Part shown: one piece after another, positions 19,900 to 64,000 of the stretch
How the letters are laid out: each line of letters starts with the position of its first letter
Numbering within the stretch: the first letter of the stretch is position 1
Source: Candidatus Roizmanbacteria bacterium GW2011_GWC2_34_23
Lineage (GTDB): Bacteria; Patescibacteriota; Microgenomatia; UBA1406; GWC2-37-13
DNA length: 64,000 bases
Assembly: GCA_000990305.1 (NCBI GenBank)
Contig: LBPR01000002.1
Span: 8,688 to 72,687, forward strand
Reading direction: 5' to 3'
Made by a program: the position numbers and the translations under genes
The notes under the pieces: generated by a model
The model's database searches: none
Seen by the model: only the letters and a program-made list of their open reading frames with translations
Told to the model about the DNA's origin: nothing

Positions 19900-20226
19900 C
19901 TAAATCTTGCTATCACATTTCTTACAAATTCTAAACTTTTTACCTTGCCTGCCGGCAGGCAGGTTTTTCTCTATTTTAAATCCAATTCTTGTTACTTTTG
20001 CGCATTTTGGACAAACAAAGTTTAATTTCGAAACATTCATTGGTCTTGGTATTTCGACGATTCCGCCCTGTGGCATTTTTTCATTTTTCTTAACATGTCT
20101 TTTGTAAAGATTCATTCCAGTAATCAAAACCTTATTAGAATTTTTATAAACTTTTTCTACCACTCCAGTCTTACCTTTATCTTTACCAATTGTTATTTTG
20201 ATTTTATCGCCTTTTTTGATTTTCAT
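19900..20226 (-). CDS. rplX: 50S ribosomal protein L24 (with LPAGRQ insert)
   Basis: MKIKKGD..GKDKGK; start reassigned. Confidence 0.96.
   Translation of the reverse strand: MKIKKGDKIKITIGKDKGKTGVVEKVYKNSNKVLITGMNLYKRHVKKNEKMPQGGIVEIPRPMNVSKLNFVCPKCAKVTRIGFKIEKNLPAGRQGKKFRICKKCDSKI
19944..19963. repeat. CCTGCCTGCCGGCAGGCAGG palindrome, in frame in rplX
   Basis: One mismatch; encodes LPAGRQ. Confidence 0.9.
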
Positions 20227-20239
20227 ATTTTTATTCTCT

Positions 20240-20267
20240 GTACGGAACAAAAATTTTTGTTCCCTAC
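20240..20267 (-). repeat. 28-bp REP-like palindrome, family A
   Basis: Identical copy between rplN and rplX. Confidence 0.9.
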
Positions 20268-20275
20268 CTTTCAAA

Positions 20276-20650
20276 TTAATATATCTCTTCTGCTAAACTT
20301 GCTATCTTAGAAAAACCATTTTCTTTAACTTCCTTTCCTATTGGACCAAAAATTCTTGTTCCTTTAGGATCCTTTACTTCTTTGCTGGCAAGTAGCACAC
20401 AAGCATTTTCATCAAATCTTATATAACTACCGTCTTTTCTTCTTACTTCTTTTCTTGTCCTAACAATAACCGCGCAGTGGACTTCGCCTTGTTTTACTAG
20501 GCCGAAAGGTTGCGCTTCTTTAACGGTAATATTTATCACTTCACCCAAATAGGCAAATTTTCGGTTTCCCATTTTAGCCATACCAATCATAGAAACTTTT
20601 TTGGCTCCACTGTTATCTGCGACGTTTAGAATTGTTCTAAGCTGCAACAT
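20276..20650 (-). CDS. rplN: 50S ribosomal protein L14
   Basis: VADNSGAK, IRFDENA, GTRIFGP. Confidence 0.97.
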   Translation of the reverse strand: MLQLRTILNVADNSGAKKVSMIGMAKMGNRKFAYLGEVINITVKEAQPFGLVKQGEVHCAVIVRTRKEVRRKDGSYIRFDENACVLLASKEVKDPKGTRIFGPIGKEVKENGFSKIASLAEEIY

Positions 20651-20693
20651 ACGCTATATATAATCTTTATAATTTTTATAATCGTTATAATTG

Positions 20694-20924
20694 TTATAAC
20701 TTCTCTATCACAACAAAGTGCTTATCCTTTGAAATTGGTTTCGTTTCTTCAATTTTGACTAAATCACCCAACTGTAAATTTAACTTTTCGTTATGAGCTT
20801 TAAATTTTTTGTGTCTGATAATGACTTTGTGATAAACTGCGTGTCGAAACTTTCTTTCAACTAAAACTACGACTGTTTTTGTCATTTTTATCGAAACTAC
20901 TTTTCCAATCAATATTTTTTTCAT
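20694..20924 (-). CDS. rpsQ: 30S ribosomal protein S17
   Basis: GKVVS.KMTKTVVV, ETKPISK; start reassigned. Confidence 0.96.
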   Translation of the reverse strand: MKKILIGKVVSIKMTKTVVVLVERKFRHAVYHKVIIRHKKFKAHNEKLNLQLGDLVKIEETKPISKDKHFVVIEKL

Positions 20925-20928
20925 ATAA

Positions 20929-21129
20929 TTATTTTGTATCCTTTTTTTCGCCAAGAACCGTTAATAAAACTGCTAACTGCTTTCTTTTTTTTGCCAAACT
21001 ATTAGTATCCTTTGGAGGGTTACTTTTAAAAGACAACTGCATTTTAGCAATTTCTTCTCTCATCTTAATAAGCTCTTTTTCAAGTTCTTTAACGTTCTTT
21101 TCACTATATAACTTAGTATTTTTTCTCAT
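20929..21129 (-). CDS. rpmC: 50S ribosomal protein L29
   Basis: Position between rplP and rpsQ; helical 66 aa ending LAVLLTV. Confidence 0.88.
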   Translation of the reverse strand: MRKNTKLYSEKNVKELEKELIKMREEIAKMQLSFKSNPPKDTNSLAKKRKQLAVLLTVLGEKKDTK

Positions 21130-21536
21130 ATTTCTTTGGATACAATTTTTGTTTTTACCGATATTTTGGATGCAACATCAGTTAACACTTTAATCGATTC
21201 TTCTTTTGATAATCCATCAATTTCAAATAAAATTCTTCCCGGTGTGACACTGGCTACAAAATATGCCACGTCCCCTTTTCCTGAACCCATCGTTACCTCT
21301 GGCGGCTTTTTGGTAAATGGTTTATCCGGAAATATCCTAAACCAATATTTGCCGCTTTTTCTTGTACCGCGGGCAAAAATAACTCGAGCCGATTCAATTT
21401 CCCGGTCTTTTATCCAAGCGCTTTTCATTGCCTTTAGGCCATAAAAACCAAAGTTTAATTTATCACCCTTAACGGCAATTTTCCTGAATGTACCTCTAAA
21501 TTGTTTTCGATATTTTTGTCTTTTTGGCGCTAACAT
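21126..21536 (-). CDS. rplP: 50S ribosomal protein L16
   Basis: MLAPKRQKYRK, IFPDKP..MGSGKG. Confidence 0.97.
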   Translation of the reverse strand: MLAPKRQKYRKQFRGTFRKIAVKGDKLNFGFYGLKAMKSAWIKDREIESARVIFARGTRKSGKYWFRIFPDKPFTKKPPEVTMGSGKGDVAYFVASVTPGRILFEIDGLSKEESIKVLTDVASKISVKTKIVSKEI

Positions 21537-21538
21537 AA

Positions 21539-22180
21539 TTATTTTTTACATATCCATACCTTAACTCCCACATATCCTGATCTTGTTAATGCTGGATATC
21601 TCGCTAAATCAACATCTTCTCTAATTGTTGATGTTGGAACTGATCCTAAGAAATATTTCTCGCGTCTTGATATTTCGGCTCCACCGACTCTTCCACCTAG
21701 TTGGATTTTGACTCCTTTAGCTCCGGCTTCCATCACTTTATTCATAGCATTGTGAACTGTAGAACGATGTGGAAAATTTTTTACTAATTTTTCCGCAACT
21801 AGTTGAGCTACATAATAAGAATTTAAAAATGGTTGTTTTACCGGTTCGATTTTAATATCAATCTTTAATTCCTTGACTTTTTCACCTTTTTTTAAATTAT
21901 CAAGGACAAACTGTTTTATTTCTTCCAACCCTTTTCCACCCCGACCAATTATCATACCAACCTTAACGGCATAAATTATCAAAGTAATCCTATTGATTGC
22001 TCTTTCAATATCTATTTGAGTTACCGAAGAAAAAGCTAACTTATTCATTAAAACTTTTCTTATTTTCAAATCTGATATCAAAGAATCCTTGAAGGCTCTT
22101 TTGTTTGAAAAGAACCATCTTGAATTCCAATTGTATATTATCCCAAGACGTAACCCTCTTGGATGAACTTTTTGTCCCAT
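21539..22180 (-). CDS. rpsC: 30S ribosomal protein S3
   Basis: MGQKVHP.GLRLG, GRVGGAEI. Confidence 0.97.
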   Translation of the reverse strand: MGQKVHPRGLRLGIIYNWNSRWFFSNKRAFKDSLISDLKIRKVLMNKLAFSSVTQIDIERAINRITLIIYAVKVGMIIGRGGKGLEEIKQFVLDNLKKGEKVKELKIDIKIEPVKQPFLNSYYVAQLVAEKLVKNFPHRSTVHNAMNKVMEAGAKGVKIQLGGRVGGAEISRREKYFLGSVPTSTIREDVDLARYPALTRSGYVGVKVWICKK

Positions 22181-22207
22181 ATATCAATAAATTTTAAATA
22201 CTAAATT

Positions 22208-22615
22208 TTAAACTTTTTTTGTCTTTTGTTTAGAATTTTGAATTTGAGATTTGTTTGTAATTTGGTGCTTAGAATTTAGAGTTTTTGATGACTCAAGGAT
22301 TATCTTAACATGGCTCATTCTTCTATTGATTGGCTTAGCATTTCCTCTAGAACCCGGTCTATAGCGCTTTAATTTTTGCCCTTGTTCAACGCTGAGAAGT
22401 TTAAATTTTAGCAGATTATCTTCTACTTTCAATGTCTGTCTAGCGCTACTAATTGCTGACTTAATGGCTTTGTATAAAATCTCTGACGCATCGGTATTTT
22501 CGTACATTAAAAATTCCAGGCTTTCAGCCGGTTTCAATTTTTTAATAGCGGGCAAATAAAAACGCGCTTTCTTCGGTGAAACTGGCAAATTGACAAAATA
22601 CGCTTTTGTTTCCAT
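22208..22615 (-). CDS. rplV: 50S ribosomal protein L22 with repeat-derived C-terminal tail
   Basis: SPKKAR, KRYRPGSRG..SHVKI, then LNSKHQITNKSQIQNSKQ. Confidence 0.95.
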   Translation of the reverse strand: METKAYFVNLPVSPKKARFYLPAIKKLKPAESLEFLMYENTDASEILYKAIKSAISSARQTLKVEDNLLKFKLLSVEQGQKLKRYRPGSRGNAKPINRRMSHVKIILESSKTLNSKHQITNKSQIQNSKQKTKKV

Positions 22616-22617
22616 AA

Positions 22618-23394
22618 TTATTTCCTACGTCTTTTTATAACTAATGATTTACTCCATTTATTTTTATTTCTAGTCCTCGTTCCGCGGGCGGACTTCCCCC
22701 AGGGAGTCTTTGGATGCATTCCTTCTCCTGATCTTCCTTCTCCACCACCATGTGGATGACTTCGTGGGTTTTGGGCCGTTCCTCGTACAGTTGGTCTCAC
22801 TCCCATTAATCTTTTTCTTCCGGCACTCCCAATTATTTCATCTTTAAATTCTATGTTTCCCAGTTGACCAACCGTTGCCCAGCAATCCTTAAAAAATCTC
22901 TGGACTGCGCCTGATGGCAGTTTAAGATGAATATACTTATCTTCTTTAGCGATGACTGATGCGGCCGTTCCGGCGCTTCTTATGATCTGTCCGCCTTTTC
23001 CAATATACAGCTCAACATTATGAATCAAAGTTCCTATTGGAATATTCTTTAGCATTAGGGCGTTTCCTATTCTAATTTCCGCATTTTCACTGGCAATGAT
23101 TTTATCCCCTACTTCAAGTTTATTAGGACAAAGAATATATCTTAATTCATTGTCTTTATATTTAACCAGAGCAATAAAAACATTTCTGTTTGGGTCCCTC
23201 TCAATTCTTATTACTTCCGCCTCAATATCTCGTTTATCTCTTTTGAAATCAATCACACGATAAAATCTCTTCTGTCTTCCGCCTTGATGTCTGACTGAAA
23301 TTTGACCACTATTATCACGACCTGATCTTTTTTTCAAAATCTGCATCAAGCTTTTTATCGCCTTAACTTTTTTTGACAATATTCTTTTATTCAT
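22618..23394 (-). CDS. rplB: 50S ribosomal protein L2
   Basis: RHQGG, DPNR, HPHGGGEG. Confidence 0.97.
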   Translation of the reverse strand: MNKRILSKKVKAIKSLMQILKKRSGRDNSGQISVRHQGGRQKRFYRVIDFKRDKRDIEAEVIRIERDPNRNVFIALVKYKDNELRYILCPNKLEVGDKIIASENAEIRIGNALMLKNIPIGTLIHNVELYIGKGGQIIRSAGTAASVIAKEDKYIHLKLPSGAVQRFFKDCWATVGQLGNIEFKDEIIGSAGRKRLMGVRPTVRGTAQNPRSHPHGGGEGRSGEGMHPKTPWGKSARGTRTRNKNKWSKSLVIKRRRK

Positions 23395-23396
23395 AA

Positions 23397-23684
23397 TTAT
23401 TTCTGAGGAAATAAATTGATCTTACCTTCCTTTAATTTAATAAAAGCAATTTTTCTGTCAGCGGTTTTTTTCAATAATCCTTTTTTTCCAACTTTTTTTT
23501 CTTTGCCTTTTCTTATCATTACTTTTACTTCGCCGGTTTTTACTTTATAAAGTTTTTCTAAAGCTTGTTTTACTTGATGTTTATTAGCTTTTAAATCAAC
23601 TTCAAACATATAAACATTACTTTGAACTAAATTAGTTGCCTTTTCAGTTAGAATTGGTTTGATTAAAATTTTATTTAGTAACAT
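23397..23684 (-). CDS. rplW: 50S ribosomal protein L23
   Basis: PILTEKA, ANKHQVK. Confidence 0.95.
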   Translation of the reverse strand: MLLNKILIKPILTEKATNLVQSNVYMFEVDLKANKHQVKQALEKLYKVKTGEVKVMIRKGKEKKVGKKGLLKKTADRKIAFIKLKEGKINLFPQK

Positions 23685-24366
23685 TTTTTTGTTTATTCTT
23701 AAAAACTTCTAAAGCGTTTTCAACAAAAATTAAACTGCTACTTTTTAATACCATGTAGGTATTTAAAGAGTTGGCATCAACAAAAGTTATATTTGGTATA
23801 TTTCTCATCGCGAGTACTAAATTATTCGTTTCCATTTTTTTCAAAATCATAAGATTGTTTTTACCGAGTAACTTCAATTCTTTCAAAAAATTAACAACTG
23901 CTTTAGTTTTAGGTTTCATTGTCAAAGCTTTTTCATCTAAACCAAAAATTTTATTTTCTTTTAATTTTGATGATAAAACTCCGTATAAGGCTAATTTTCG
24001 TTCTTTTTTATTAAACTTTAAATTGTAATCTTTTTGTTTTGGACCGTGAGCAACTCCACCACCAACAAAAATTGGGGCTTTGATTGCGCCGTGTCGTGCT
24101 TTTCCAGTTCCTTTTTGACGGTATATTTTTCTTGTTGAACCAATTACTTCGCTTCGTGTTTTTACTTTAACGTTTCCTTGTCTTTGATTTACTAAATAGA
24201 CTCTAACCGCTTGAGCTAATAAGCCTGGTTTAACTTTGACGGCAAAAACTTCTTTTGGAAGTTCAACGGTTCTTTGTTCTTTTCCGTCAATATCATAGAT
24301 AGATAAAGATAGGTTTGCTTTTTTTGTTTCTGCGATTTTTGTTTCCGTTTTTTTTGTTGTAACCAT
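23671..24366 (-). CDS. rplD: 50S ribosomal protein L4
   Basis: KTRSEV, RQKGTGKARHG, GGGVAHGP. Confidence 0.97.
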   Translation of the reverse strand: MVTTKKTETKIAETKKANLSLSIYDIDGKEQRTVELPKEVFAVKVKPGLLAQAVRVYLVNQRQGNVKVKTRSEVIGSTRKIYRQKGTGKARHGAIKAPIFVGGGVAHGPKQKDYNLKFNKKERKLALYGVLSSKLKENKIFGLDEKALTMKPKTKAVVNFLKELKLLGKNNLMILKKMETNNLVLAMRNIPNITFVDANSLNTYMVLKSSSLIFVENALEVFKNKQKNVTK

Positions 24367-24374
24367 ATTTTTTG

Positions 24375-24402
24375 GTACGGGTTTGATTAATCAAACCCCT
24401 AC
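24375..24402 (-). repeat. 28-bp REP-like palindrome, family B
   Basis: GTAG-GGGTTTGATTAATCAAACCC-GTAC on minus strand between rplC and rplD. Confidence 0.85.
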
Positions 24403-24403
24403 A

Positions 24404-25096
24404 TTAACTTCTTACTTCTAACAACCCACCTTTAGCGCCAGCGACCAACCCTTTAATTAATATTCCATTTTCTTTTACTTCAATAACTTCAATATTTTTG
24501 ATTGTTACGCGGTCGTTACCCATTCTACCGGCCATTCTTTTTCCTTTAAAAACTCTTCCCGGGGTGGTTGTCATTCCAATTGATCCGGGAGCTCTTTCAT
24601 CTCGGGAGGCTCCGTGAGTGTGTGATCTTCCTTTAAATCCGTGACGTTTGACTCCTCCTTGAAATCCTTTCCCCTTAGATGTACCCGAAACTGTTATTAA
24701 GTCACCGCTTTTGATTAAAAGAGTTGGATTAATGACATCTCCGGAAAAAATTTTGACTTCCCCAATTTGAATACCTTCTTTCTCACCTTCTTTAACTAGG
24801 AGAACTTTTTCTTTATTAGTTTCCTGCCTGCCGGCAGGCAGGTCCAACCTAAACTCCCTTAAAAAACGAAGCGGGGTCTTTATCCCCGCTTTTTCTAATT
24901 CTCCTTTTACAGGCTTTTTAATATTTTTAGTTTGTCCGTATCCGAGTTTAACGGAAAAATAACCCCGTTTGTCCGGGGTAATTATGTCTATAAGATGACA
25001 CGATGAAGTATCAATAAAAGTAGTAGGCATCCTTTCCCCATTTTTATCAAATTGCTGAGATGAAACCGATTTTTTCCCTAATAGAAATACTGGCAT
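24404..25096 (-). CDS. rplC: 50S ribosomal protein L3 (with LPAGRQ insert)
   Basis: SKGKGFQGGVKRHGF, RAPGSIG, GKRMAGRMG. Confidence 0.97.
   Translation of the reverse strand: MPVFLLGKKSVSSQQFDKNGERMPTTFIDTSSCHLIDIITPDKRGYFSVKLGYGQTKNIKKPVKGELEKAGIKTPLRFLREFRLDLPAGRQETNKEKVLLVKEGEKEGIQIGEVKIFSGDVINPTLLIKSGDLITVSGTSKGKGFQGGVKRHGFKGRSHTHGASRDERAPGSIGMTTTPGRVFKGKRMAGRMGNDRVTIKNIEVIEVKENGILIKGLVAGAKGGLLEVRS
24823..24842. repeat. CCTGCCTGCCGGCAGGCAGG palindrome, in frame in rplC
   Basis: Perfect 20-bp palindrome encoding LPAGRQ. Confidence 0.92.
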
Positions 25097-25110
25097 AATA
25101 TATATTGTCC

Positions 25111-25142
25111 AAAAAAAATCCTTCTTTCCCGAACAAAAGGAT
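25111..25142 (-). terminator. Terminator/attenuator-like hairpin plus U-tract upstream of rplC
   Basis: AUCCUUUU..AGAAGGAU followed by a U run on the mRNA. Confidence 0.5.
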
Positions 25143-25160
25143 AGTTAACATGTAAACAGC

Positions 25161-25189
25161 ATTATATAACAACGATTTAAAATGTTCAA
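25161..25189 (-). promoter_or_regulatory. Sigma70-type promoter between rpsJ and rplC
   Basis: TTGAAC-17 nt-TATAAT. Confidence 0.6.
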
Positions 25190-25203
25190 GCAGAATTTTT
25201 TAC

Positions 25204-25512
25204 TTACATTTTTACTTCAACCTCAACACCGGCAGGAAGTTCAAGATGCATTAGAGAGTCAATTGTTTGGTTGGTAGGATTCAAAATATCAATCATTCTT
25301 TTGTGAGTTTTTAAACCAAAATGCTCCCGAGCATCTTTATCAATGAACGACGATTTATTAACTACAAACATTTCGTTTTTTGTAGGTAATGGAATTGGGC
25401 CAACTACATTAGCACCAGTTCTGATTGTTGTATCAACTATTTTTTGACACGTTTCATCAATAAGACGATGGTCATACGACTTAAGCCTAATTCTAATTCT
25501 TCCTTTCGGCAT
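25204..25512 (-). CDS. rpsJ: 30S ribosomal protein S10
   Basis: IRIRLKSYDH, GPIPLPT, LPAGV; start reassigned. Confidence 0.97.
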   Translation of the reverse strand: MPKGRIRIRLKSYDHRLIDETCQKIVDTTIRTGANVVGPIPLPTKNEMFVVNKSSFIDKDAREHFGLKTHKRMIDILNPTNQTIDSLMHLELPAGVEVEVKM

Positions 25513-25530
25513 ATTAAGGTGCAAAAAATT

Positions 25531-25558
25531 GTAGGGAACAAAGATTTTTGTTCCCTAC
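25531..25558. repeat. 28-bp REP-like palindrome, family A
   Basis: GTAGGGAACAAAGATTTTTGTTCCCTAC between tuf and rpsJ. Confidence 0.88.
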
Positions 25559-25575
25559 GTTAATTGTATTTACAA

Positions 25576-26760
25576 TTATTTAATAATCTTCGTTACAACT
25601 CCAGCTCCGACCGTGTGACCACCTTCTCGAACGGCAAACTTCAATCCTTCTTCCATAGCAACTGGATAGATTAATTTACCTTTAATTTTGACATTGTCCC
25701 CTGGCATAACCATTTCAACACCTGCTGGTAACTCAACCTCTCCGGTAATATCTGTGGTTTTGATGTAAAACTGAGGTCGATATCCTTTAAAGAATGGTGT
25801 GTGTCTTCCACCTTCATCTTTAGTCAAGATATAAATTTCTGCATCAAATTCTGTGTGAGGAGTAATTGATCCTGGTTTGGCAATTACTTGTCCACGAATT
25901 ACATCTTCTTTTTCTACTCCTCTAAGTAGCAAACCAACATTGTCTCCCGCTCGAGCTTCGTCAAGTGTTTTTTTGAACATTTCAACACCGGTAATAACCG
26001 TCTTTTTCGTTTCTTTAATTCCAATTATCTCCATCTCTTCATTTACTTTTGCAATTCCTCTTTCAACTCTTCCTGTGACGACTGTTCCTCGTCCGGATAT
26101 TGTAAAGACGTCTTCAACCGGCATCAAGAACGGTTTATCAGTGTCTCTAACTGGATCTGGTATATAATTATCAATTTGTGTCATTAAATCTTCAATTGAC
26201 TTAAGTCCAGCTGGATCGTCGGCTAATGCTTTAATTGCCGAACCACGAATAACTGGAACTTTATCACCAGGGAATCCATATTTAGTCAAAAGTTCTCTCA
26301 CTTCCATTTCAACTAAGTCTAAGATTTCCTTATCTTCAACCATATCAACTTTGTTTAAGAAAACAATTATGGCAGGAACATTTACCTGACGTGCAAGTAA
26401 AATATGTTCTCTTGTTTGAGGCATGGGCCCGTCTGGAGCAGAAACAACCAAGACAGCTCCATCCATCTGAGCGGCACCGGTAATCATGTTCTTAATATAA
26501 TCGGCATGTCCTGGGGCATCAATGTGCGCATAGTGCCTTTTGTCTGTCTCATATTCGCTGTGGTGAAGATTAATAGTGACTCCACGAGCTTTTTCTTCCG
26601 GAGCTTTATCAATCTCTTCATATTTCAAGAATTTTGCTTGTCCTTTTTTTGAAAGAACGTAATGAATTGCTGAAGTTAAAGTTGTCTTTCCATGATCAAC
26701 GTGACCAATCGTACCAATATTTAAATGAGGTTTGTTCCTCTTAAAAACGCCGTCTGCCAT
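25576..26760 (-). CDS. tuf: Elongation factor Tu
   Basis: [21 protein letters not shown]. Confidence 0.99.
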
Positions 26761-27016: not shown

Positions 27017-27027
27017 AGGCCCATAAT

Positions 27028-43911: not shown

Positions 43912-44889
43912 ATGAAACTACTTGTGACCGGTGGAGCTGGATTTATTGGAAGCAACTTCATTCTTTATTGGTTAAAAAAATATCCACAGGATAAAATTGT
44001 TAATTTGGACAAATTAACATACGCTGGCAATCTTGAAAATCTAAGATCCATTGAAAAAAACCCTAACTATGAATTTGTGCAAGGTGACATCTGTAACCCT
44101 CAACTAGTTAATTCTCTAACAGAGAAAACCGATGTAATAGTTCACTTCGCTGCTGAATCACACGTTGATCGGTCCATTATGGATCCGGCTCCATTTATCA
44201 AAACAAATATTGAAGGTACTTATGTTTTACTTGAAGCCGCTTTAATAAACAAAGTAAAAAGATTTCATCATGTTTCAACAGATGAAGTTTTCGGAGCTCT
44301 TGAATTAGGATCAAGTGAAAAATTTAATGATTTAACTCCGTATAATCCCCACAGCCCATATTCTGCTTCAAAAGCTTCCTCAGACCATTTGGTCCGTGCT
44401 TATTTTGATACCTATAAACTTCCTATGACGATATCCAACTGTTCAAACAATTTTGGTCCCTACCAATTTCCGGAAAAATTAATTCCTTTGGCGATCACGA
44501 ATTTGATCGAGGGGAAAAAAGTGCCTGTTTATGGCGATGGGCTCTATGTTCGTGACTGGCTTTATGTCGAAGATCATTGCCGGGCGATTGATTTGGTTTT
44601 GCAAAAAGGAAAAATTGGAGAAACTTATTTAATTGGCGGATTAACTGAAGATATTGCCAATATAGATATTATTAAGAACATTTTAAAGATTATGGGAAAA
44701 GATGAAACACAAATCGAATTTGTCAAAGACCGACCCGGTCATGATCGTCGGTATGCTATCGATTGGTCAAAAATTAATAAAGAATTAGGCTGGAAACCCG
44801 AGCATAGTTTTGATGAATATCTAAAGATAACAGTAGATTGGTATATTAGTAACAGAAAATGGTGGGAACGAATTAAAAAAACAGTTTAA
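43912..44889 (+). CDS. rfbB: dTDP-glucose 4,6-dehydratase
   Basis: TGGAGFIGSN, HFAAESHVDRS, STDEV, YSASK, DRPGHDRRY. Confidence 0.96.
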   Translation: MKLLVTGGAGFIGSNFILYWLKKYPQDKIVNLDKLTYAGNLENLRSIEKNPNYEFVQGDICNPQLVNSLTEKTDVIVHFAAESHVDRSIMDPAPFIKTNIEGTYVLLEAALINKVKRFHHVSTDEVFGALELGSSEKFNDLTPYNPHSPYSASKASSDHLVRAYFDTYKLPMTISNCSNNFGPYQFPEKLIPLAITNLIEGKKVPVYGDGLYVRDWLYVEDHCRAIDLVLQKGKIGETYLIGGLTEDIANIDIIKNILKIMGKDETQIEFVKDRPGHDRRYAIDWSKINKELGWKPEHSFDEYLKITVDWYISNRKWWERIKKTV

Positions 44890-45746
44890 TGCTTATGCTA
44901 AAAATCGCTCTTACAGGGGCTGATGGCTTAGTTGGCTCAAGAATTGTTGAACTTCTTAAAGATGATTTTGAATTTATTCCGTTACCCCAAAAGTTGATGG
45001 ACATTACCAATAAGGAACACGTTGATAATGCCTTGAAAAATTTAGATTTTAATATCTTTTTCCATCTAGCCGCTTTCACTAATGTCCCGGGGGCAGAAAC
45101 TAACAAAGAGCTTTGCTTTAAGATCAATCGTGATGGAACTAAAAACGTGTATGAGGCGGTCAAGCAAAAACAAAAAAAGTTTATTTATGTTTCAACTGAC
45201 TTCGTTTTTGATGGTATTAGTCCTCCTTATAATGAAGATTCCCTTCCAAATCCGATAGGAGTTTATGCTTTATCAAAATACGAAGGTGAAAAAATTGTTA
45301 ATCCGCCAGCTGGCGGACAGGCGATGATTGTTAGAATCGCATACCCGTATCGGACCAGTTTTGAATTAAAAAAAGATTTTTTTAGAACTTTTAAATTTTA
45401 TTTAGAAAATAATAAGCCTTTATCGATGATTACCGACTCTCTCATGACGCCGACCTTTATTGATGATATTGCTTATGGGTTGAAGTATTTATTTAATAAT
45501 TATAAACCTGAAATATATCATCTCGTGGGAAGCCAATCAATATCACCTTATGATGCAGCTATGAAAGTGGCAGAAACTTTTAATCTTGATAAATCTTTAA
45601 TTGGAAAAACCACTTATGAAGAATACATTTTAGGCAAAGCCCGATTACCCCAGTTTGCAACTATTAAAAGCAATAAGAATAATTTTTGGAAAATGAAAAC
45701 ATTCGGGGAAGGATTAGATGTAATAAAAAAACAAATATCTAAGTAA
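44889..45746 (+). CDS. rfbD: dTDP-4-dehydrorhamnose reductase-like
   Basis: TGADGLVG, HLAAFTNV, STDFVFDG, YALSK. Confidence 0.88.
   Translation: MLMLKIALTGADGLVGSRIVELLKDDFEFIPLPQKLMDITNKEHVDNALKNLDFNIFFHLAAFTNVPGAETNKELCFKINRDGTKNVYEAVKQKQKKFIYVSTDFVFDGISPPYNEDSLPNPIGVYALSKYEGEKIVNPPAGGQAMIVRIAYPYRTSFELKKDFFRTFKFYLENNKPLSMITDSLMTPTFIDDIAYGLKYLFNNYKPEIYHLVGSQSISPYDAAMKVAETFNLDKSLIGKTTYEEYILGKARLPQFATIKSNKNNFWKMKTFGEGLDVIKKQISK
45302..45317. repeat. TCCGCCAGCTGGCGGA palindrome, in frame in rfbD
   Basis: Perfect 16-bp GC-rich palindrome encoding PPAGG. Confidence 0.75.
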
Positions 45747-45763: not shown

Positions 45764-45852
45764 TATTGCTCTATTGTTTAATTGTTACATTGTTAAAAAA
45801 CAACAACCTGCCTGCCGGCAGGCAGGTCGAACAATGAAGCAATGAAACAATG
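45764..45852. repeat. Octamer array with nested CCTGCCTGCCGGCAGGCAGG (45807-45826)
   Basis: Intergenic between rfbD and ugd. Confidence 0.88.
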
Positions 45853-45891
45853 TTGCCTTTATTACAGCATTTTTGTATCATTTAATTTCAT

Positions 45892-56494: not shown

Positions 56495-57473
56495 AATCTA
56501 TAATATTTATAAGTTTTAGTTTATCAATAGAAGTCACATTTGCAAATATCATTACCAATCTTTCGAACCCAATTCCCGCTCCTGTGCAAAAAGGCAAACC
56601 ATATTTTAATGCTTTAATGAAGCTTTTGTCAATCGTATGATCAATCATTTTATTTTTTTTTCGCTTTTCTGATTCAGAAATAAATCTCTTTTCCTGCTCA
56701 TTATAATCATTCAATTCTGTACAAAAACCTCCGATCTCAAGACCATTTATATAGAACTCACATCTTTGAGCGGTTCGACCATCTTCGTTCAATTTAGCCA
56801 AAGAAGCCATTTGTTTTGGATAATTATAAAGTAAGGTCGGGTAACCACTAATTCCTAACTTTGGCTCTATTTCGGTTGCTAATATCTGGGAAAACAGATC
56901 TTCATAGGTGGTTTTTTCGATGTTGTATCCTTTTTCTTTTGCTTTGTTAAAAAACAATTTCTCGTCAAATAATTCTTCTTCATTTATTTTTGTAAATTTT
57001 AAGAATGCTTGAGCCACCGACATTTTTTCCCATTTTTTAAATGATATTTTTAATTTTTTATTTTCTATTTTGATATATTGAAGTAATTTCAGCACTTCAT
57101 CGGCCATTTCTAAATAATCTATACCTAATTTATAAAATTCTAGCATGGTGAATTCTGGACTGTGCCAATCAGAATTTGGCTCGCTATTTCTATAAGCCCG
57201 ACCGAGATAATAACAATTACCAACTCCAGTGACCAACAATCTTTTCAAGAATATTTCTGGCGAAGGTGTCAAATAAAGTTTTTCCTTTTTATCAAGATAA
57301 TTAAACTTGGTTTCAAAAATTTCAAGATAAGATTCAGGAATAAGTGCCGGAGACAAAACCGGTAGATCAACTTTAAGATAATTATTTTTATTCATAAATT
57401 CATGGACAGTTCGCTCGACCTGGAGATAGATTTTGTAGTTGTTTAAGTTCTTAATAGTTGTTTGTATTTTCAT
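56493..57473 (-). CDS. epmA: EF-P lysine aminoacylase (EpmA/GenX-like)
   Basis: LTPSPE, YRNSE..HSPEFTMLEFY, GAGIGFERL; no anticodon domain; adjacent to efp. Confidence 0.88.
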   Translation of the reverse strand: MKIQTTIKNLNNYKIYLQVERTVHEFMNKNNYLKVDLPVLSPALIPESYLEIFETKFNYLDKKEKLYLTPSPEIFLKRLLVTGVGNCYYLGRAYRNSEPNSDWHSPEFTMLEFYKLGIDYLEMADEVLKLLQYIKIENKKLKISFKKWEKMSVAQAFLKFTKINEEELFDEKLFFNKAKEKGYNIEKTTYEDLFSQILATEIEPKLGISGYPTLLYNYPKQMASLAKLNEDGRTAQRCEFYINGLEIGGFCTELNDYNEQEKRFISESEKRKKNKMIDHTIDKSFIKALKYGLPFCTGAGIGFERLVMIFANVTSIDKLKLINIID

Positions 57474-57538
57474 GTTGAAATTATACATTAGAAAAATATA
57501 TTGTTTCATTGTTCCATGGTTTCATTGTTTTCAATTTT

Positions 57539-57564
57539 GTAGGGGCTTGATTTATCAAGCCCTA
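57539..57564 (+). repeat. GTAG-type REP-like palindrome (family B variant)
   Basis: GTAG-GGGCTTGAT-TT-ATCAAGCCC. Confidence 0.8.
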
Positions 57565-57606
57565 AACATAAATCAAAAGCCTTGTGTCAGGTGATATAAT
57601 TTTTAA

Positions 57607-57835
57607 ATGGCAAGAGGGCAGTTTGAATCCAGGAGCAGTGAAATTAGAGAAGTAAAAGCTGAAGAAAATATTACTTCAAAGAGGGGTATTGCTAAGCATA
57701 TGCACAACATATTAAGAGTGATACTTAAAGATGGGTAATTATTTTAAAAAGGGAATTAAAATTGATTTGACACCTAAAGCTAAGAAAAATAGAGAAAAAG
57801 CAGCCGATGATTTGAAAAAAAAATATGATCTATAA
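57607..57835 (+). pseudogene. Probable degraded orphan ORF
   Basis: TGATATAAT-6 nt-ATG, 43 codons then stops, Lys-rich open continuation to about 57835. Confidence 0.3.
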
Positions 57836-57863
57836 TAATTTCAGTAATTTTTTCAAAACAAAA

Positions 57864-57901
57864 TCAAATCTCTTCCTCCAACTCCTTTAATAGTTCTTTT
57901 G
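57864..57901 (-). pseudogene. Orphan second 3' terminus of dnaJ
   Basis: 32/38 nt to 58287-58324; KELLKELEEEI* versus [11 protein letters not shown]. Confidence 0.88.
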
Positions 57902-57911
57902 ATGAATATTT

Positions 57912-58037
57912 TGGAACGATGAATCGTTCCACTACAGTTAATGATAATTCCTAATCTAAAAAAATAGTAGAGGTGCAATTTATTGCACAAAAAATCAGCA
58001 TTATTTAAAAATTCGTAGTGATTTGATTTATCAAACC
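57912..58037. repeat. Cluster of three GTAG-type REP-like palindromes
   Basis: 57912-57935 (minus, GTAG-TGGAACGAT-TC-ATCGTTCCA), 57967-57988, 58015-58037. Confidence 0.7.
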
Positions 58038-58066
58038 TTAATAATTTATATTTAAAGCATTATGCC

Positions 58067-58095
58067 TTGACAAGAAGAATAACTGAGTGTAGAAT
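58067..58095 (+). promoter_or_regulatory. Sigma70-type promoter
   Basis: TTGACA-17 nt-TAGAAT. Confidence 0.65.
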
Positions 58096-58106
58096 CTTAA
58101 AAACTT

Positions 58107-58286
58107 ATGACGACGCTAGGCTCTTTACCAAAAAAAATAAAAAATCCAGAAGGATTTGTTACACTTCCTGGTTCTGTATTTACTGCATTAGCTTTTGTTA
58201 ATAGTGGAAGAGTAAAGATCACTGAAGAATTAGCTAAAATATTAAAAAAAATGAAAGAGGGACGTATAAAAAATGAAAAAGAGTAA
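58107..58286 (+). CDS. Small hypothetical protein (59 aa), stop abuts the dnaJ stop
   Basis: MTTLGSLPKKIKNPEGFVTLPGSVFTALAFVNSGRVKITEELAKILKKMKEGRIKNEKE, own promoter. Confidence 0.55.
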   Translation: MTTLGSLPKKIKNPEGFVTLPGSVFTALAFVNSGRVKITEELAKILKKMKEGRIKNEKE

Positions 58287-59144
58287 TCAAATCTCTTCTT
58301 CCAACTCCCTCAACAACTCTTTTGCCCTTGAAGAAACTCGGGACGGGGTATTGATTTTGTAGACGACGTACTGATCGCCTTTGCGGTTTGATTGCGGATA
58401 AGGAACTCCTTGATCGTGAAGTTTGACAGTTGTCCCCGACTGCGTCCCCGATCTTATTTTTAACTTAATCGTCCCATTAACAGTTGGAACTTCGACCACT
58501 CCGCCAAGAACTGCTAAAGAATAAGAAATTTCTTTTTCAAAATATATATCCTGACCTTTTCTGGTGAAATAAGGATGCGATTTAACTTTCACCTGCAAAT
58601 CAAAATCGGAAAATCTGATTGTCATATTGTCATCAACTCCTGCTGGGATCTGAAAAGATTTTTCTTCACCTTTGACAATCATAGTTTTCTTAACACCGTT
58701 AACGGCTTCTTCAAAAGTCAAAGTGATTTCATAAACATCACGTCTTTGCTGGCGTCTTCCCCCCCGGGAAAACGGTGATTGAAAGCCGAAAAATTGTTCA
58801 AAAATTTCAAAAGGATCGGAAAATCCCCCAAAATCAACATTCTCAAATCCCTGAGTTGAAAAGCCTCCAAAGCCTCCAAATGGATTTGACTGATCTGATT
58901 GTCCAGCACTCGAGTGACCTGGACCTCCTCGATTGAAAGCGCTTTCTCCATACTGGTCATACATTTCTCGCTTTTTTGAATCAGAAAGAACTTCGTAGGC
59001 TTTTGTAACATCTTTAAATTTACCAGAAGCTTCTGTTGTTTTATTTCTGTCCGGATGCCACTTAAGAGCCTGACGACGATAGGCCGTTTTTATTTCCGCA
59101 TCAGATGCACCCTTTGAAACACCGAGAGTTTCGTAATAATCCAT
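58287..59144 (-). CDS. dnaJ: DnaJ chaperone (class B, no zinc finger)
   Basis: J domain with HPD, G/F-rich region, C-terminal domain. Confidence 0.93.
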
Positions 59145-59145
59145 A

Positions 59146-61056
59146 TCAGTTCACCACTTCTCCTTCTTCCACCTTTCCTTTGTCCGCCGTAGCTTTAGCG
59201 GAGGCGGATTCCTTAGCGTCTTCACTTTTTGAATCTGCTTTCGCTTCACCAGGTTTTGCCTCTTGTTTGGCGTAAGCCGCTTGTCCAATTTTTGAAAGTT
59301 CGTCAGAAAGATCTTTTGTTTTTGCTTCTATTTCATCTTTTGTTCCTTTTTCGATCTTTTCTTTAAGTTCTTTGATCTTTTTCTCAACATTTTCTTTGAT
59401 GGTTTTATCGACCTTATCTCCACCATCACGTAAAGATTTTTCTGATACATAGATCATGTTATCAGCTTTATTTCTTACCTCGATCTTTTCTTTTTCCTCT
59501 TTATCCTTGTCAGCGTTCTTCTCCGCTTCTTCTCTCATCTTTTCAATCTCATCTTTAGTTAGTCCGGTTGATCCGGTGATTTTGATAGCTTGGGATTTTC
59601 CGGTTGCCTTATCTTTGGCCGTAACCGTCAAAATTCCATTGGCATCCAACTCAAAAGTGACTTCAATCTGAGGAACACCTCGAGGAGCCGGTGGAATGCC
59701 ATCAAGGGTAAATCTTCCCAAAGATTTATTATCACGAGCTAACGGTCTTTCACCCTGCATAATGTGGATCTCTACTTGTGTCTGATTATCTCCGGCAGTT
59801 GAAAATACTTCCGCTTTAGAATTTGGGACCGTTGTATTCTTCTGGATTAATGGTGTCATCACACCGCCCAATGTTTCAAGTCCAAGCGTCAGTGGAGTGA
59901 CATCAAGCAACACAACGTCCTTGGTTTCTCCAGTTAAAACACCTCCCTGAATTGCCGCTCCAAGAGCAACCACTTCATCAGGATTAACGGAACGGTTTGG
60001 TTCCTTGCCAAAAAACTCTTTTACCTTTTCAATTACTTTTGGCATTCTCGTCATACCTCCAACTAAAACTACTTCATTAATCTTGGAAACGTCAACTTTT
60101 GCATCTTTCAAACAGGCTTTAACTGGTCCAAAAGTTTTTTCAATTAACTCACCGATTAATGACTCGAGTTTATCTCTTCCAATCTTCATCACTAAATGTG
60201 ATGGCTGACCATCTTTAACAGTGACAAACGGCAAGTTAACCTCCGCTTCTTTCGAAGTAGATAGTTCAATCTTGGCTTTCTCAGCTGCATCACGTAAACG
60301 CTGAAGAGCTTGCGGATCTTTTCTTAGATCAACACCGTTATCTTTCTTAAATTCATCAGCAATGTAGTCCAAGATGACTTTATCAAAATCGTCTCCACCC
60401 AAATGAGTATCACCGTTGGTTGCTTTGACATGAAAAACGCCTTCGCCCAACTCAAGGACGGTTATATCAAAAGTTCCTCCACCCAGATCATAAACAGCAA
60501 TTGTGTGGCTGTGCTTTTTATCCAAGCCGTAAGCCAAAGCAGCCGCAGTTGGTTCATTAATAATTCTGACGACTTCCAGTCCAGCAATTTCACCGGCCTG
60601 TTTGGTTGCCTGGCGTTGAGCGTCGTCAAAATAAGCAGGGACAGTAATAACGGCTTTTTCAACTTTTTCGCCTAAATGAGCTTCTGCATCAACCTTAATT
60701 TTTTGCAAAATCATTGCCGAAATCTCTTGAGGAGTATATGTTTTTCCTTCTATTTCAACGTCGGCCATTTCATCTCGACCTTGAACAATTTTATACGGCA
60801 GCCATTTGACATCAATCTTGACTGACTCGTCACTAAATCTTCTACCCATCAATCTCTTAATTGAGAAAACTGTATTTTTTGGATTAACGACCATCTGACG
60901 TTTTGCCACGTCCCCAACAATCCTTTTTACCGGATCAACCACCGATGGAATCGTGTTTCTTCCTTCTTGAGAAAAGATAACTTTTGGTTTTCCTCCCTCC
61001 ATTACCGCCACACACGAATTTGTCGTACCTAAATCAATCCCTATTATTTTAGCCAT
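59146..61056 (-). CDS. dnaK: Chaperone DnaK
   Basis: [28 protein letters not shown]. Confidence 0.99.
59183..59208. repeat. TCCGCCGTAGCTTTAGCGGAGGCGGA hairpin, in frame in the dnaK tail
   Basis: Encodes SASAKATAD; related split copy at about 62524-62573. Confidence 0.7.
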
Positions 61057-61080
61057 ATTGATTAAAAATAAATTTTTAAT

Positions 61081-61178
61081 AAATTACAAATCCTAAATCT
61101 CAAGTTCCAAATAAGTTTAAAATTTTAAATTTAAAACGTTTATTATTTATTTGTGATTTGTTATTTAGAATTTATAAT
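61081..61178. repeat. Degenerate heptamer array with inverted halves
   Basis: AAATTAC AAATCCT AAATCTC AAGTTCC.. then complements. Confidence 0.65.
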
Positions 61179-61651
61179 TTTTTTTGATACTTTGACTTGC
61201 GCAACTCTAATTATTTTATCTTCAAATTTATAACCTTTTCTTAAAATTTCTACAACTTTATTTTCTTCTTTTCCTGGAATAATATCAATTGCTCCATTTC
61301 AACCAACCCTGCTTCCTTCAAAATTTGGATAAAATGATCCTTTGAGATCTTCAATCCTTCGTCTTTCACAAACAATTCTGCCTTTTCTAAATTATCTATA
61401 AACGGCAATATTTTTATCAATAGATTTTTATTGGCCATCTTCATCAGCTCAAATCTTTCTTCACCGACTCTTTTTTCTAAATTCTGGTAATCAGCTATTG
61501 CTCTTAAATATTTATTTTTAAATTCATCTACCTGTTGTTTTAATGCAACAATTTCCAATTGTATTTTTTCAAGCTCGAGTTTCTTTGTTAAATCATCTGG
61601 GCTTTGTTTTTCTTCTTTTTTTTGATTTGTTTTTGTTTGCTTTTTGTCCAT
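61161..61651 (-). pseudogene. grpE: GrpE, frameshifted by an apparent internal deletion (or assembly error)
   Basis: KYLRAIADYQN..ILPFIDNLE in one frame; AIDIIPG..LRKGY..IRVAQVKV in another frame from about 61292. Confidence 0.85.
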
Positions 61652-61683
61652 AATTATTAAATTATAACTCTCAATTAATTATT

Positions 61684-61758
61684 AATTTATTTAGCGAGTT
61701 TAACGAGTTAACGAGTTTAATTAATGAAACTCGCCAAACTCTCTAAACTCGTAAAATA
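61684..61758. repeat. (GAGTT)n/(AACTC)n inverted array
   Basis: Reverse-oriented copy between hrcA and grpE. Confidence 0.8.
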
Positions 61759-61776
61759 AAAAATAATAAATAAATT

Positions 61777-62517
61777 TTAAAGTTCCTGTTCTTTTACAAT
61801 TTCTCCCAATAATCCGGAAAAATATCTTACCTGAGGAATAACAGCCTCATAAGACATTCTTTTTGGACCAATTACGCCAATAATTCCTTTAATTTTTGTC
61901 CCTTCAAATTCACCAAATACACTTGCGCAACAGTCAAAAGCCGGATCATGAAAATCCTCTTCTCCAAGCATATAATAAATTTCATCTTCAAGTGAAAACA
62001 TGTCATTTAATATTTTTTCCCAAAAGGTTACTTCGTCAAGCCTGCCAAATAAAGATCGCGATAGATTAATGTCCAAAAATTCCGGCTCATTCAGTAAATT
62101 CGCCATACCTGAATAATACACATCTCCTAAGTTGGTTGTTACAAGTGATAATAAACTTGTTTTCTGTGATAAAACTTTGGTCGCTTGAGACAAAAGTCGA
62201 TGAGCTTCTTTTCTTTCGTCCCAAACACTATTTTTGTATGAGACTTCGTCAATGGTTGACATCTCTTTTTGCTTCATCAGATGCTTTATGTAAAAACGGA
62301 AGCCTTTTGCCGATGGAACCCGGCCAGAAGAAAAATGATTCTTTTTCAAGTAACCTTTTTTGGCCAGCTCAACCATCTCATTTCTGATTGTTGCCGGCGA
62401 AACTCCCAATTTGTATTTCTTTTCCAAAATCTCACTTCCCACGGCCGCACCGGTTTCCGTATATTCGTGAATAATTACTTTTAAAATGTCGATCTGTCTT
62501 TGTGTTAAGTCTTCCAC
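61777..62517 (-). CDS. hrcA: Heat-inducible repressor HrcA (short form)
   Basis: SPATIRNEM, SSGRVPS.KGFRFY, IGVIGPKRM.Y. Confidence 0.93.
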   Translation of the reverse strand: MEDLTQRQIDILKVIIHEYTETGAAVGSEILEKKYKLGVSPATIRNEMVELAKKGYLKKNHFSSGRVPSAKGFRFYIKHLMKQKEMSTIDEVSYKNSVWDERKEAHRLLSQATKVLSQKTSLLSLVTTNLGDVYYSGMANLLNEPEFLDINLSRSLFGRLDEVTFWEKILNDMFSLEDEIYYMLGEEDFHDPAFDCCASVFGEFEGTKIKGIIGVIGPKRMSYEAVIPQVRYFSGLLGEIVKEQEL

Positions 62518-62576
62518 ATCGTCTCGCTGTAGCTCAATTTAACTTATTTAACATTTTATTGAGCGGAGGCGGATAT

Positions 62577-62611
62577 TTAGCAAATATACATAACGTCTGC
62601 TAAAATGTCAA
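62577..62611 (-). promoter_or_regulatory. CIRCE-like operator overlapping the sigma70 promoter of the hrcA operon
   Basis: TTAGCA-N15-TGCTAA (27 bp, 62577-62603); TTGACA-17 nt-TATATT on minus strand. Confidence 0.75.
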
Positions 62612-62655
62612 TAGGTATTTATAACCGTTATAAATGTTATAATTTTTATAAACTT

Positions 62656-63531
62656 ATGATGAAACTTGGCGCACATCAATCAATTTCCGGTGGATATTCA
62701 GAAGCTTTAAAACGAATAAGTAATATTGGCGGAAATTGCCTACAAATTTTTTCTTCCTCCCCCCGTGGTTGGAACTTTGCAAACCCAAATGATGATGAAA
62801 TAAAAAAATTCTCAATTCTGAATTCTGAATTCTCAATTTCTCCTATATATTTTCATGCAACGTACTTAATTAATTTAGCTGACGACGGTCGCATCGGACA
62901 CATGTCAAAAATGTCGTTAATTAACGAATTAAATCTTGCGCCAAAACTTGGCATTAAAGGCTCAATAATTCACCTTGGATCTTTCAAAGAAAAAAAACAA
63001 TTGCCAATAGAAAATTATCTTATCGACGATCGTCCACAAGATAATAAATACAAGGTTTTAATAAATAATATTAAAGAAATACTTGACAAAACTCCGAAAG
63101 ATTCTCTGTTTATTATAGAAAATGCCGGGAACAGAAAGATTGGACAAACTCTTGAAGAAATATCACAAATCGTCAAAGATGTTAACAACAAACGAATTCG
63201 TCTTTGCTTAGATACCTGTCATTTGTTTTCCAATGGATATAAATTTGATACAAACAAAGAGCTCGATTTTTTTCTCGCTAAACTCGTTAAACTCGAAATA
63301 AATAATTTAGTTGAATTATGGCATGTTAACGATAGCCGCGACGAATTTGACTCAGGCCACGACCGCCATGATAATATTGGACAAGGAAAAATGAACATTG
63401 ATGAGTTTAAAACTTTATTAAATCACCCACAAACAAAAAACTTTCCTTTTATAATCGAAACTCCAGGATTTGATGGCAACGGTCCTGATAAAAAAAATCT
63501 CGATATTTTAAAATCCTTAGTTGGTATATAA
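62656..63531 (+). CDS. nfo: Endonuclease IV
   Basis: LGAHQSI, HATYLINL, IENAG, CLDTCH, HVNDS..DRHDNIG, ETP; start reassigned. Confidence 0.93.
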   Translation: MMKLGAHQSISGGYSEALKRISNIGGNCLQIFSSSPRGWNFANPNDDEIKKFSILNSEFSISPIYFHATYLINLADDGRIGHMSKMSLINELNLAPKLGIKGSIIHLGSFKEKKQLPIENYLIDDRPQDNKYKVLINNIKEILDKTPKDSLFIIENAGNRKIGQTLEEISQIVKDVNNKRIRLCLDTCHLFSNGYKFDTNKELDFFLAKLVKLEINNLVELWHVNDSRDEFDSGHDRHDNIGQGKMNIDEFKTLLNHPQTKNFPFIIETPGFDGNGPDKKNLDILKSLVGI

Positions 63532-63538
63532 TTTCTAC

Positions 63539-64000
63539 ATGATCAAACTGCCAAAAGAAGTTGTTGAACTGATGAAAAAATTTAAAGAAAGTAAGTTCCA
63601 AATTTATGTTGTTGGCGGGGCCGTTCGTGATACTCTTTTAAACAAGCCTGTTGATAATTGGGACTTTACAACAAATGCCACTCCGGAACAAATTCTTAAA
63701 ATGTTCCCTGACGCTTTTTATAACAATGTCTACGGAACTGTAACCGTGCCAATCAAAAATGAACAATCAAACAACCTGCCTGCCGGCAGGCAAGGTGAAA
63801 CAATGAAACAATTGCTTTTTGAAATCACTCCATTCCGCAAAGAATCTGGTTATTCTGATTTACGTCATCCGGAAAAAATAGAATGGGCAAAAACCATAGA
63901 AGAAGATTTATCACGTCGTGACTTTACAATTAACTCTATGGCTTTTGATGGATCAATAATTATTGATCCCTACAAAGGAATGGATGATTTAAAAAATAAA
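63539..64000 (+). CDS. CCA-adding/poly(A) polymerase class II nucleotidyltransferase (runs off window)
   Basis: Manual translation VGGAVRD..NWDFTT..EITPFR..EDLSRRDFTINSMA. Confidence 0.9.
   Translation, partial: MIKLPKEVVELMKKFKESKFQIYVVGGAVRDTLLNKPVDNWDFTTNATPEQILKMFPDAFYNNVYGTVTVPIKNEQSNNLPAGRQGETMKQLLFEITPFRKESGYSDLRHPEKIEWAKTIEEDLSRRDFTINSMAFDGSIIIDPYKGMDDLKNK
63775..63794. repeat. CCTGCCTGCCGGCAGGCAAG palindrome, in frame in the CCA enzyme
   Basis: Encodes LPAGRQ inside an AACAAT octamer array. Confidence 0.9.

What the first reader, a model, noticed from the sequence alone, without database searches (positions are those of the whole stretch)
19944..63794. A 20-bp GC-rich palindrome translated as LPAGRQ inside L24, L3 and the CCA enzyme
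CCTGCCTGCCGGCAGGCAGG occurs four times in this AT-rich window: 19944, 24823, 45807 (intergenic) and 63775. It has no stop in any frame, and all three coding copies read LPAGRQ in unrelated essential proteins. This is analogous to Rickettsia palindromic elements but far shorter. It suggests a mobile micro-element that adds peptide loops to core proteins. No mobilising enzyme is visible in the window.
Basis: partly seen in the sequence, partly recalled or inferred. Interest (0 to 1): 0.75.

Follow-up and report, generated by a model that had tools for sequence, protein, structure and literature searches.

The report
Tiny mobile palindrome lengthening essential proteins
A 20-base DNA palindrome, present 26 times in this small bacterial genome and unchanged in many phyla, has inserted into essential genes, where it survives only in forms that keep the reading frame (often as a 21-base variant), and it is likely spread by a miniature nuclease gene that elsewhere sits beside it in tRNA genes.

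Summary
Confirmed. The palindrome (P) occurs 4 times in the window (2 exact, 2 as a 21-nt variant with one extra A) and 26 times in the 708-kb genome; shuffles give 0. It is an insertion: most orthologues of L24, L3 and the CCA enzyme lack it. Empty sites show a precise 20-bp insert with no target duplication. In genes the net gain is 21 nt. The 21-nt variant lies in ORFs in 23 of 33 cases, against 16 of 54 for P. P occurs in 114 of 401 genomes of the phylum and in other phyla. Its partner is a 79-aa Slx1-like GIY-YIG subfamily lodged in tRNA genes: 52 of 78 loci chosen by protein similarity have P within 100 bp upstream (controls 0 of 66). That gene was not found in this genome (80% complete), and catalysis is inferred. 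It works like SRM/Ssn and REP/RAYT pairs and cyanobacterial SDRs, but fails the SRM and REP membership tests. I found no published description; this scan has reported the same element several times on other DNA.

The parts
19943..19963 (.). 21-nt variant of the palindrome (one extra A) in rplX (uL24, 19900-20226, minus strand); net +7 aa in a beta-hairpin turn
24823..24842 (.). exact 20-bp palindrome CCTGCCTGCCGGCAGGCAGG in rplC (uL3, 24404-25096, minus strand); net +21 nt against orthologues, so one extra base lies beside it
45807..45826 (.). exact 20-bp palindrome, intergenic, inserted in an AT-rich repeat; the empty site occurs exactly twice elsewhere in the genome
63775..63795 (.). 21-nt variant in the tRNA nucleotidyltransferase gene; a same-genus orthologue has the empty site
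63750..63815 (+). older AT-rich repeat insert (about 10 codons; limits approximate) in the CCA gene, into which the 21-nt copy landed; present without P in G048, absent in 3 other orthologues, replaced by a different insert in a fourth
63539..64000 (+). 5' part of the CCA-adding enzyme gene (PolyA_pol head and HD domains; runs past the window end to G000 C2:73626)

Best explanation
P is a non-autonomous 20-bp hairpin element that inserts precisely with no target duplication, and it is likely the recognition sequence of, and likely copied to new sites by, a 79-aa Slx1-like GIY-YIG nuclease whose gene lodges in tRNA genes. SHOWN: a precise 20-bp insert; preference for purine|pyrimidine steps, above all A|T; purging from coding DNA unless the net gain is a multiple of 3 (21-nt variant, P plus one neighbouring base, or P inside a larger repeat insert); tight cis-linkage to one GIY-YIG subfamily in the layout tRNA 5' fragment split by P, nuclease gene, intact tRNA. 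INFERRED: the nuclease nicks single-stranded or cruciform DNA at P and at a target, and host repair or ligation joins the 20-mer in. The copies here are likely left over from a past visit of the cassette, or the gene is in the unassembled 20%. The peptide is a tolerated loop, not a selected function.
For: Precise insertion: for 20 of 26 copies the plain join of the two 11-nt flanks occurs elsewhere in the genome with at most 2 mismatches (10 exact). In cassettes, 34 of 48 upstream copies have the empty site elsewhere in the locus, mostly in the intact tRNA. Mobility: 0-45 copies across 43 congeners; insertions of P or other palindromes into the same loops in other genomes. Junctions: R|Y 70 vs 36.9 expected, Y|R 14 vs 36.8, n=169. 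Frame: 21-nt variant coding in 23 of 33 vs 16 of 54 for P, p=4e-4 with kin not independent; absent from 81 cassette loci. Linkage: 52 of 78 similarity-picked loci vs 0 of 66 control windows; 17 of the top 18 profile hits in 401 genomes vs 0 of the next 12; 0 of 8 for a control tRNA-lodged GIY-YIG group; 2 of 3 motif-bearing vs 0 of 90 other genus GIY-YIGs. P sits at positions 10-29 of 12 tRNA isotypes, which points to repeated placement rather than one inherited event. Catalytic Tyr, Gly, Arg, His and Glu are invariant; the fold is nearest UPF0213, HIGLE and Slx1.
Against: The cognate gene was not found in G000, nor among the fetched hits of other P-rich congeners such as G023 with 45 copies. 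41 of 60 phylum genomes with at least 3 solo copies lack a profile hit. The genome-level association (19 of 37 vs 41 of 364) is not distinguishable from the small control group (2 of 8 with at least 3 copies, 6 of 8 with any; p=0.25). P-linked nucleases do not resolve as one clade in a quick 84-column tree (4 changes). GIY-YIG domains are known to cut but not to join DNA (recalled). Hairpin targeting is weak: 35 of 169 sites vs 8.8 in mononucleotide shuffles, but only 79 of 152 non-G000 sites fold better than neighbouring windows. How L3 and L1 passed from +20 to +21 without a lethal intermediate is unexplained.
Confidence: 0.58

Rival explanations
1. P spreads by host recombination or gene conversion through repeated AT-rich tracts, REP-like hairpins and tRNA fragments, as proposed for SDRs. 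The nuclease travels with P as its operator or self-protection mark but does not move it.
For: Most intergenic copies sit in multi-copy repeat families, often at the same position in the family. The CCA and PPAT-like copies lie inside repeat inserts. Most P-rich genomes lack the nuclease hit.
Against: The L24, L1 and L3 sites are unique sequence with no homology to recombine on. The junction bias, the many different tRNA positions and nested P-in-P copies need a first, homology-free insertion step.
Confidence: 0.24
2. P is a REP-like element moved by a resident Y1 (HUH) tyrosine transposase; the GIY-YIG link reflects shared landing sites.
For: G000 encodes 6 Y1_Tnp proteins, one 385 bp from the L1 copy. 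Insertion without duplication fits HUH chemistry (recalled). Variants weakly hint at an offset 6-bp hairpin plus 4-nt tail (5 vs 3 compensatory sites; commonest change at position 8).
Against: No GTAG or CGTC tag beside any of 26 copies. No Y1_Tnp among 150 of 204 ORFs neighbouring P in 70 loci from other genomes. Other tRNA-lodged GIY-YIGs with the same kind of landing site lack P.
Confidence: 0.12
3. LPAGRQ is a selected functional peptide tag, or an ancestral segment.
For: The Cys-free LPAGRQ frame is favoured: 25 vs 11 vs 3, p=7e-5 against junction-weighted expectation.
Against: Orthologues lack it. The DNA is near-invariant, with no synonymous spread. 18 of 26 copies are outside long ORFs. 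Both orientations and other frames occur.
Confidence: 0.03
4. Assembly or library artefact.
For: Most carriers are metagenome-assembled genomes.
Against: Present in cultured isolates such as Winogradskyella echinorum and Longitalea luteola. Shared at the same L1 site by two species. Decayed copies exist. Bridged by contigs from separate studies.
Confidence: 0.01

Closest known systems
Ssn nucleases with NTS/SRM hairpin repeats (Chenal et al. 2025, PMC11893778; read: abstract, sections 7, 8, 10, 12 and search passages; supplements not read)
   Same: A small single-domain GIY-YIG gene flanked by a short hairpin repeat that also occurs as dispersed copies; 71% flanking there, 67% here.
   Different: Different repeat (no SRM match) and a different branch of GIY-YIG, closer to Slx1/UPF0213. 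The cassette lives in tRNA genes ('tRNA' occurs 0 times in that paper's main text). P is a perfect palindrome and is often intragenic; NTS is intragenic in 2%. Mobility of SRMs was only hypothesised.
Small dispersed repeats (SDR) of Nostoc (Elhai et al. 2008; paper not held; seen only as a passage in PMC5861425 and a mention in PMC3116915, the rest recalled)
   Same: 21-27 nt elements that insert singly into tandem repeats and other small targets (recalled); SDR5 into HIP1 (passage).
   Different: SDRs were reported only in Nostocaceae (passage) and have no known partner enzyme (recalled). P is near-invariant across phyla and has a linked nuclease.
REP/REPIN with RAYT; GTAG and CGTC REPs (PMC3733652, PMC3116915; passages read)
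   Same: A 20-40 bp palindrome linked to a mobilising gene, with some intragenic copies.
   Different: No GTAG or CGTC tag or tail; mostly single copies, not doublets; the partner is a GIY-YIG, not a Y1 transposase.
Rickettsia palindromic elements (passages in the review PMC10969869)
   Same: In-frame palindromic inserts in unrelated housekeeping genes.
   Different: RPEs are about 150 bp and reported from Rickettsia; P is 20-21 bp and cross-phylum.

Membership tests
Ssn/SRM | repeat matches the degenerate SRM motif | tested here: not met
   0 of 26 G000 copies overlap an SRM match and 0 of 80 cassette loci have one in the stretch tested; 7 of 21 Ssn-like genus genes do have one upstream
Ssn/SRM | nuclease belongs to cd10448 | tested here: inconclusive
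   CDD not available; P-linked proteins lie outside the well-supported 21-row branch that looks Ssn-like by its flanking repeats and fold nearest UPF0213 and Slx1
Ssn/SRM | single-domain GIY-YIG gene with its own adjacent hairpin repeat | tested here: met
Ssn/SRM | site-specific ssDNA cleavage near the repeat | not testable with these tools
   needs biochemistry
REP/REPIN-RAYT | GTAG or CGTC terminal tag | tested here: not met
   0 of 26 within 6 nt
REP/REPIN-RAYT | copies flank a Y1 transposase gene | tested here: not met
   no Y1_Tnp among 150 of 204 neighbouring ORFs; in G000 one copy is 385 bp from a Y1 gene but lies inside rplA
SDR-type very small mobile repeats | about 21-27 nt, inserted singly into repeats (criteria recalled) | tested here: met
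   20-21 nt; empty sites in repeat families
SDR-type very small mobile repeats | sequence identity to SDR1-8 | not tested
   paper not held
MITE | 70-300 bp with terminal inverted repeats (size from PMC3733652 passage) and target-site duplication (recalled) | tested here: not met
   20 bp, no duplication at empty sites
RPE | about 150 bp, Rickettsia | tested here: not met

The most novel reading that the evidence does not exclude
Slx1-like mini GIY-YIG nucleases lodged in tRNA genes act as transposases for 14-21 bp hairpins, each subfamily with its own hairpin. P is then among the smallest mobile elements with an identified enzyme. A recurrent +1 slip (the 21-nt form) turns it into a cross-phylum generator of new loops in ribosomal and other core proteins.
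Probability: 0.35. Interest if true: 0.85.

Novelty: new variant of a known kind. Interest (0 to 1): 0.62.

Why it matters
It names a testable enzyme for a long-open question: how repeats of about 20 bp with no terminal repeats and no target duplication move. A 79-aa nuclease that places a fixed 20-mer would be new chemistry for GIY-YIG proteins and a possible tool. In practice, P is in 28% of the phylum genomes sampled and puts the same peptide into unrelated markers (uL3, uL24, uL1, LepA), including the same site in distant species. Such inserts are therefore unsafe as shared-ancestry signatures, and P can hide tRNA fragments from annotation. Cultured Bacteroidota carry P, so experiments are feasible.

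Tried and rejected
Pfam scan of 150 of 204 ORFs next to P in 70 loci from other genomes: no recurring family. The greedy ORF choice missed the small GIY-YIGs, which a dedicated profile then found in 8 of 188 loci. The 30 best PF01541 loci of the genus had no P; they belong to other subfamilies. Four-helix-bundle genes (6 in G000) were considered because P lands in AT-rich repeats; no link to P was seen. Genome-level co-occurrence is not claimed as specific, because the control gave p=0.25. The offset-hairpin register is only a hint, since 16 of 20 positions pass that test by construction. The careful tree did not finish, so the quick tree was used. No RNA holder was listed. A second read-laying did not return the putative empty-allele contig, so the position of the extra base in L3 is unresolved. 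The viral collection gave only 1 cassette, already known. Programmed -1 frameshifting or RNA-level bypass of a 20-nt insert was considered: all 8 in-gene copies in G000 are already in frame, so it is not needed; frameshifted genes were not searched for systematically. Literature searches without a description: LPAGRQ; the DNA string (13); palindromic + Patescibacteria terms; GIY-YIG with REP/RAYT, tRNA or SLX1 terms; RPE terms (35); SDR terms. The library lacks most subscription papers, and the supplements of PMC11893778 and PMC3733652, which list repeats, were not read.
Full report
OBSERVATION. The pattern matches four places in the window and none in 100 shuffles. The window lies in a 708-kb, 33.7% GC, 80% complete genome. 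I infer a Patescibacteria-type organism from its size, from relatives of 0.4-2 Mb and from groundwater holders. The genome holds 21 exact and 5 one-mismatch copies and nothing at 2-3 mismatches. P is its most repeated GC-rich palindrome. Eight copies lie in identified genes: uL24, uL3, CCA enzyme, uL1, a cytidylyltransferase/DUF359 protein, a tetrapyrrole-methylase (RsmI-like) protein, a LepA-like GTPase and an O-antigen ligase. Five read LPAGRQ (one LPAGKQ) and three read (P/L)ACRQAG. Eighteen are outside long ORFs, although ORFs of 200 aa or more cover 75% of the genome, so coding insertions are purged.

IT IS AN INSERTION. Of 29 L3 orthologues, 27 have nothing at the site, one distant congener has P there and one has another 7-aa insert; a further one has a 27-bp palindrome a few codons on. 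Of 29 L24 orthologues, 26 lack an insert, one has a decayed copy, one an 18-bp relative and one is frameshifted. In the L24 model the insert lies between strands 81-85 and 97-101. For the CCA, RsmI-like and L1 genes, congeners supply empty sites and the net gain is 21 nt each; one congener shares the L1 copy. A contig in a public run differs from the L3 region by 13 substitutions and 21 gap positions, consistent with an empty allele. Copy number runs from 0 to 45 over 43 congeners.

ANATOMY. For 20 of 26 copies the joined flanks occur elsewhere in the genome (10 exact, 5 with one mismatch, 5 with two), with no base gained or lost. Two more fit with one extra base, three have no match and one has only a weak match. 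So the unit is 20 bp with no target duplication. Many targets are AT-rich repeat families or other hairpins, and P also nests in itself. Junctions favour purine|pyrimidine steps: A|T 47 vs 13 expected, n=169. P folds into an 8-bp stem with a 4-nt loop. Hairpin targeting is suggested but weak.

THE FRAME PROBLEM. Twenty bases break a frame. Three G000 'mismatch' copies are really a 21-nt form with one extra A, and all three are in genes. Across my loci the 21-nt form is coding in 23 of 33 cases, against 16 of 54 for P. The filter is strict and drops L24 itself; p=4e-4, with kin not independent. The form is absent from 81 cassette loci but has some non-coding copies. It is best read as a recurrent slip, or a minor circulating form, that selection lets through. 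In L3 and L1 an exact P is accompanied by one extra base nearby; elsewhere P sits inside a larger repeat insert. Frames among 39 coding copies: LPAGRQ 25, ACRQAG 11, CLPAG 3. The favoured frame is the only one without Cys (inference). How an essential gene goes from +20 to +21 is unexplained.

DISTRIBUTION. P is in 114 of 401 genomes of the phylum. There are 40 stretches in viral contigs.

THE PARTNER. I first saw P in tRNA-like flanks and before small GIY-YIG ORFs. Earlier scan notes then pointed to the same link, and I tested it. Seven of 188 P loci have P 20-43 bp upstream of a GIY-YIG gene. Loci picked only by similarity to those proteins have P within 100 bp upstream in 52 of 78 cases (38 exact); control windows, 0 of 66. 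After removing duplicates, 53 of 74 have P nearby. P splits a 5' tRNA fragment at positions 10-29 of 12 isotypes, and the empty site lies elsewhere in the locus, mostly in the intact tRNA, in 34 of 48. An independent profile search of 401 genomes gave P-like sequence upstream of 17 of the top 18 hits and 0 of the next 12; 30 of 39 hits came with loci. A control group of tRNA-lodged GIY-YIGs had 0 of 8. Other genus GIY-YIGs had 0 of 90 within the cut-off; one Ssn-like gene had a decayed copy just beyond it. The protein keeps the catalytic residues and folds like UPF0213, HIGLE and Slx1. Against a resident role: G000 has only a distant GIY-YIG and a broken gene of another subgroup; 41 of 60 genomes with at least 3 solo copies lack a hit; and the genome-level enrichment (odds ratio 8) is not separable from the small control.

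MECHANISM. Shown: precise insertion, junction bias, frame selection and cis-linkage. Inferred (0.58): P is the nuclease's cognate hairpin; nicking of single-stranded or cruciform DNA plus host repair places new copies, most often in the dispensable tRNA fragment beside the gene and at lower rates anywhere; solo copies outlast the cassette. Rivals are recombinational spread (0.24), a Y1 transposase (0.12), a selected peptide (0.03) and artefact (0.01).

COMPARISON. It works like the SRM/Ssn pair (PMC11893778) and REP/RAYT (PMC3733652, PMC3116915), and inserts like SDRs (passage in PMC5861425; the rest recalled). It is not an SRM and has no REP tag, and is far shorter than RPEs (PMC10969869). 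Ten searches found no description. The scan itself has reported this element and cassette on other DNA many times; those notes are leads, not support. The short notes I saw do not mention the 21-nt frame-saving variant or the junction bias.

VERDICT. Real, mobile and apparently unpublished; a new variant of nuclease-linked hairpin repeats, with the catalytic step untested. Interest 0.62.

Noticed in passing
window 45302-45317: A second GC-rich perfect palindrome (16 bp, 5 copies in the genome) sits in frame inside the ORF 44889-45746; likely another micro-element family.
   Followed up: no
L279, L350, L297, L373, L383 vs L348, L576, L579, L569 (genus GIY-YIG loci): Other tRNA-lodged GIY-YIG subgroups carry their own hairpins in the upstream tRNA fragment: a CCCGA...TCGGG type in 5 of 5 of one group and a CCCGCC...GGCGGG-like type in another. 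This suggests subfamily-hairpin pairing; some may be altered anticodon arms.
   Followed up: partly
G000 intergenic regions, e.g. window 45770-45855: Several families of AT-rich, short-period inverted repeat tracts are dispersed in the genome and also inserted in frame into genes (CCA, PPAT-like, LepA-like, ligase). Their mobiliser is unknown; 6 four-helix-bundle genes are present.
   Followed up: partly
L033 (G001 uL24), L022 (G023 uL3), G000 C9:14304 and C24:7254: Related 18-bp and 27-bp palindromes; the first two are inserted into the same protein loops as P.
   Followed up: no
L258:1456-1547: A complete tRNA-Met(CAT) in a viral contig with P inserted in the variable loop, still called as a tRNA.
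   Followed up: no
L167:1561-2532: A P-linked GIY-YIG domain embedded in frame in a type I restriction specificity subunit gene.
   Followed up: no
L086; L309:546-585; L124, L148, L411: Tandem duplication of the whole cassette, a head-to-tail P-P doublet, and P nested in P at the same loop position.
   Followed up: partly
G267 and others: A variant with A at position 8 accounts for 18 of 34 single-substitution sites and appears to be a second circulating form.
   Followed up: partly
G000 C8:27814-28021: A frameshifted GIY-YIG pseudogene of a different subgroup, preceded by REP-like repeats.
   Followed up: no
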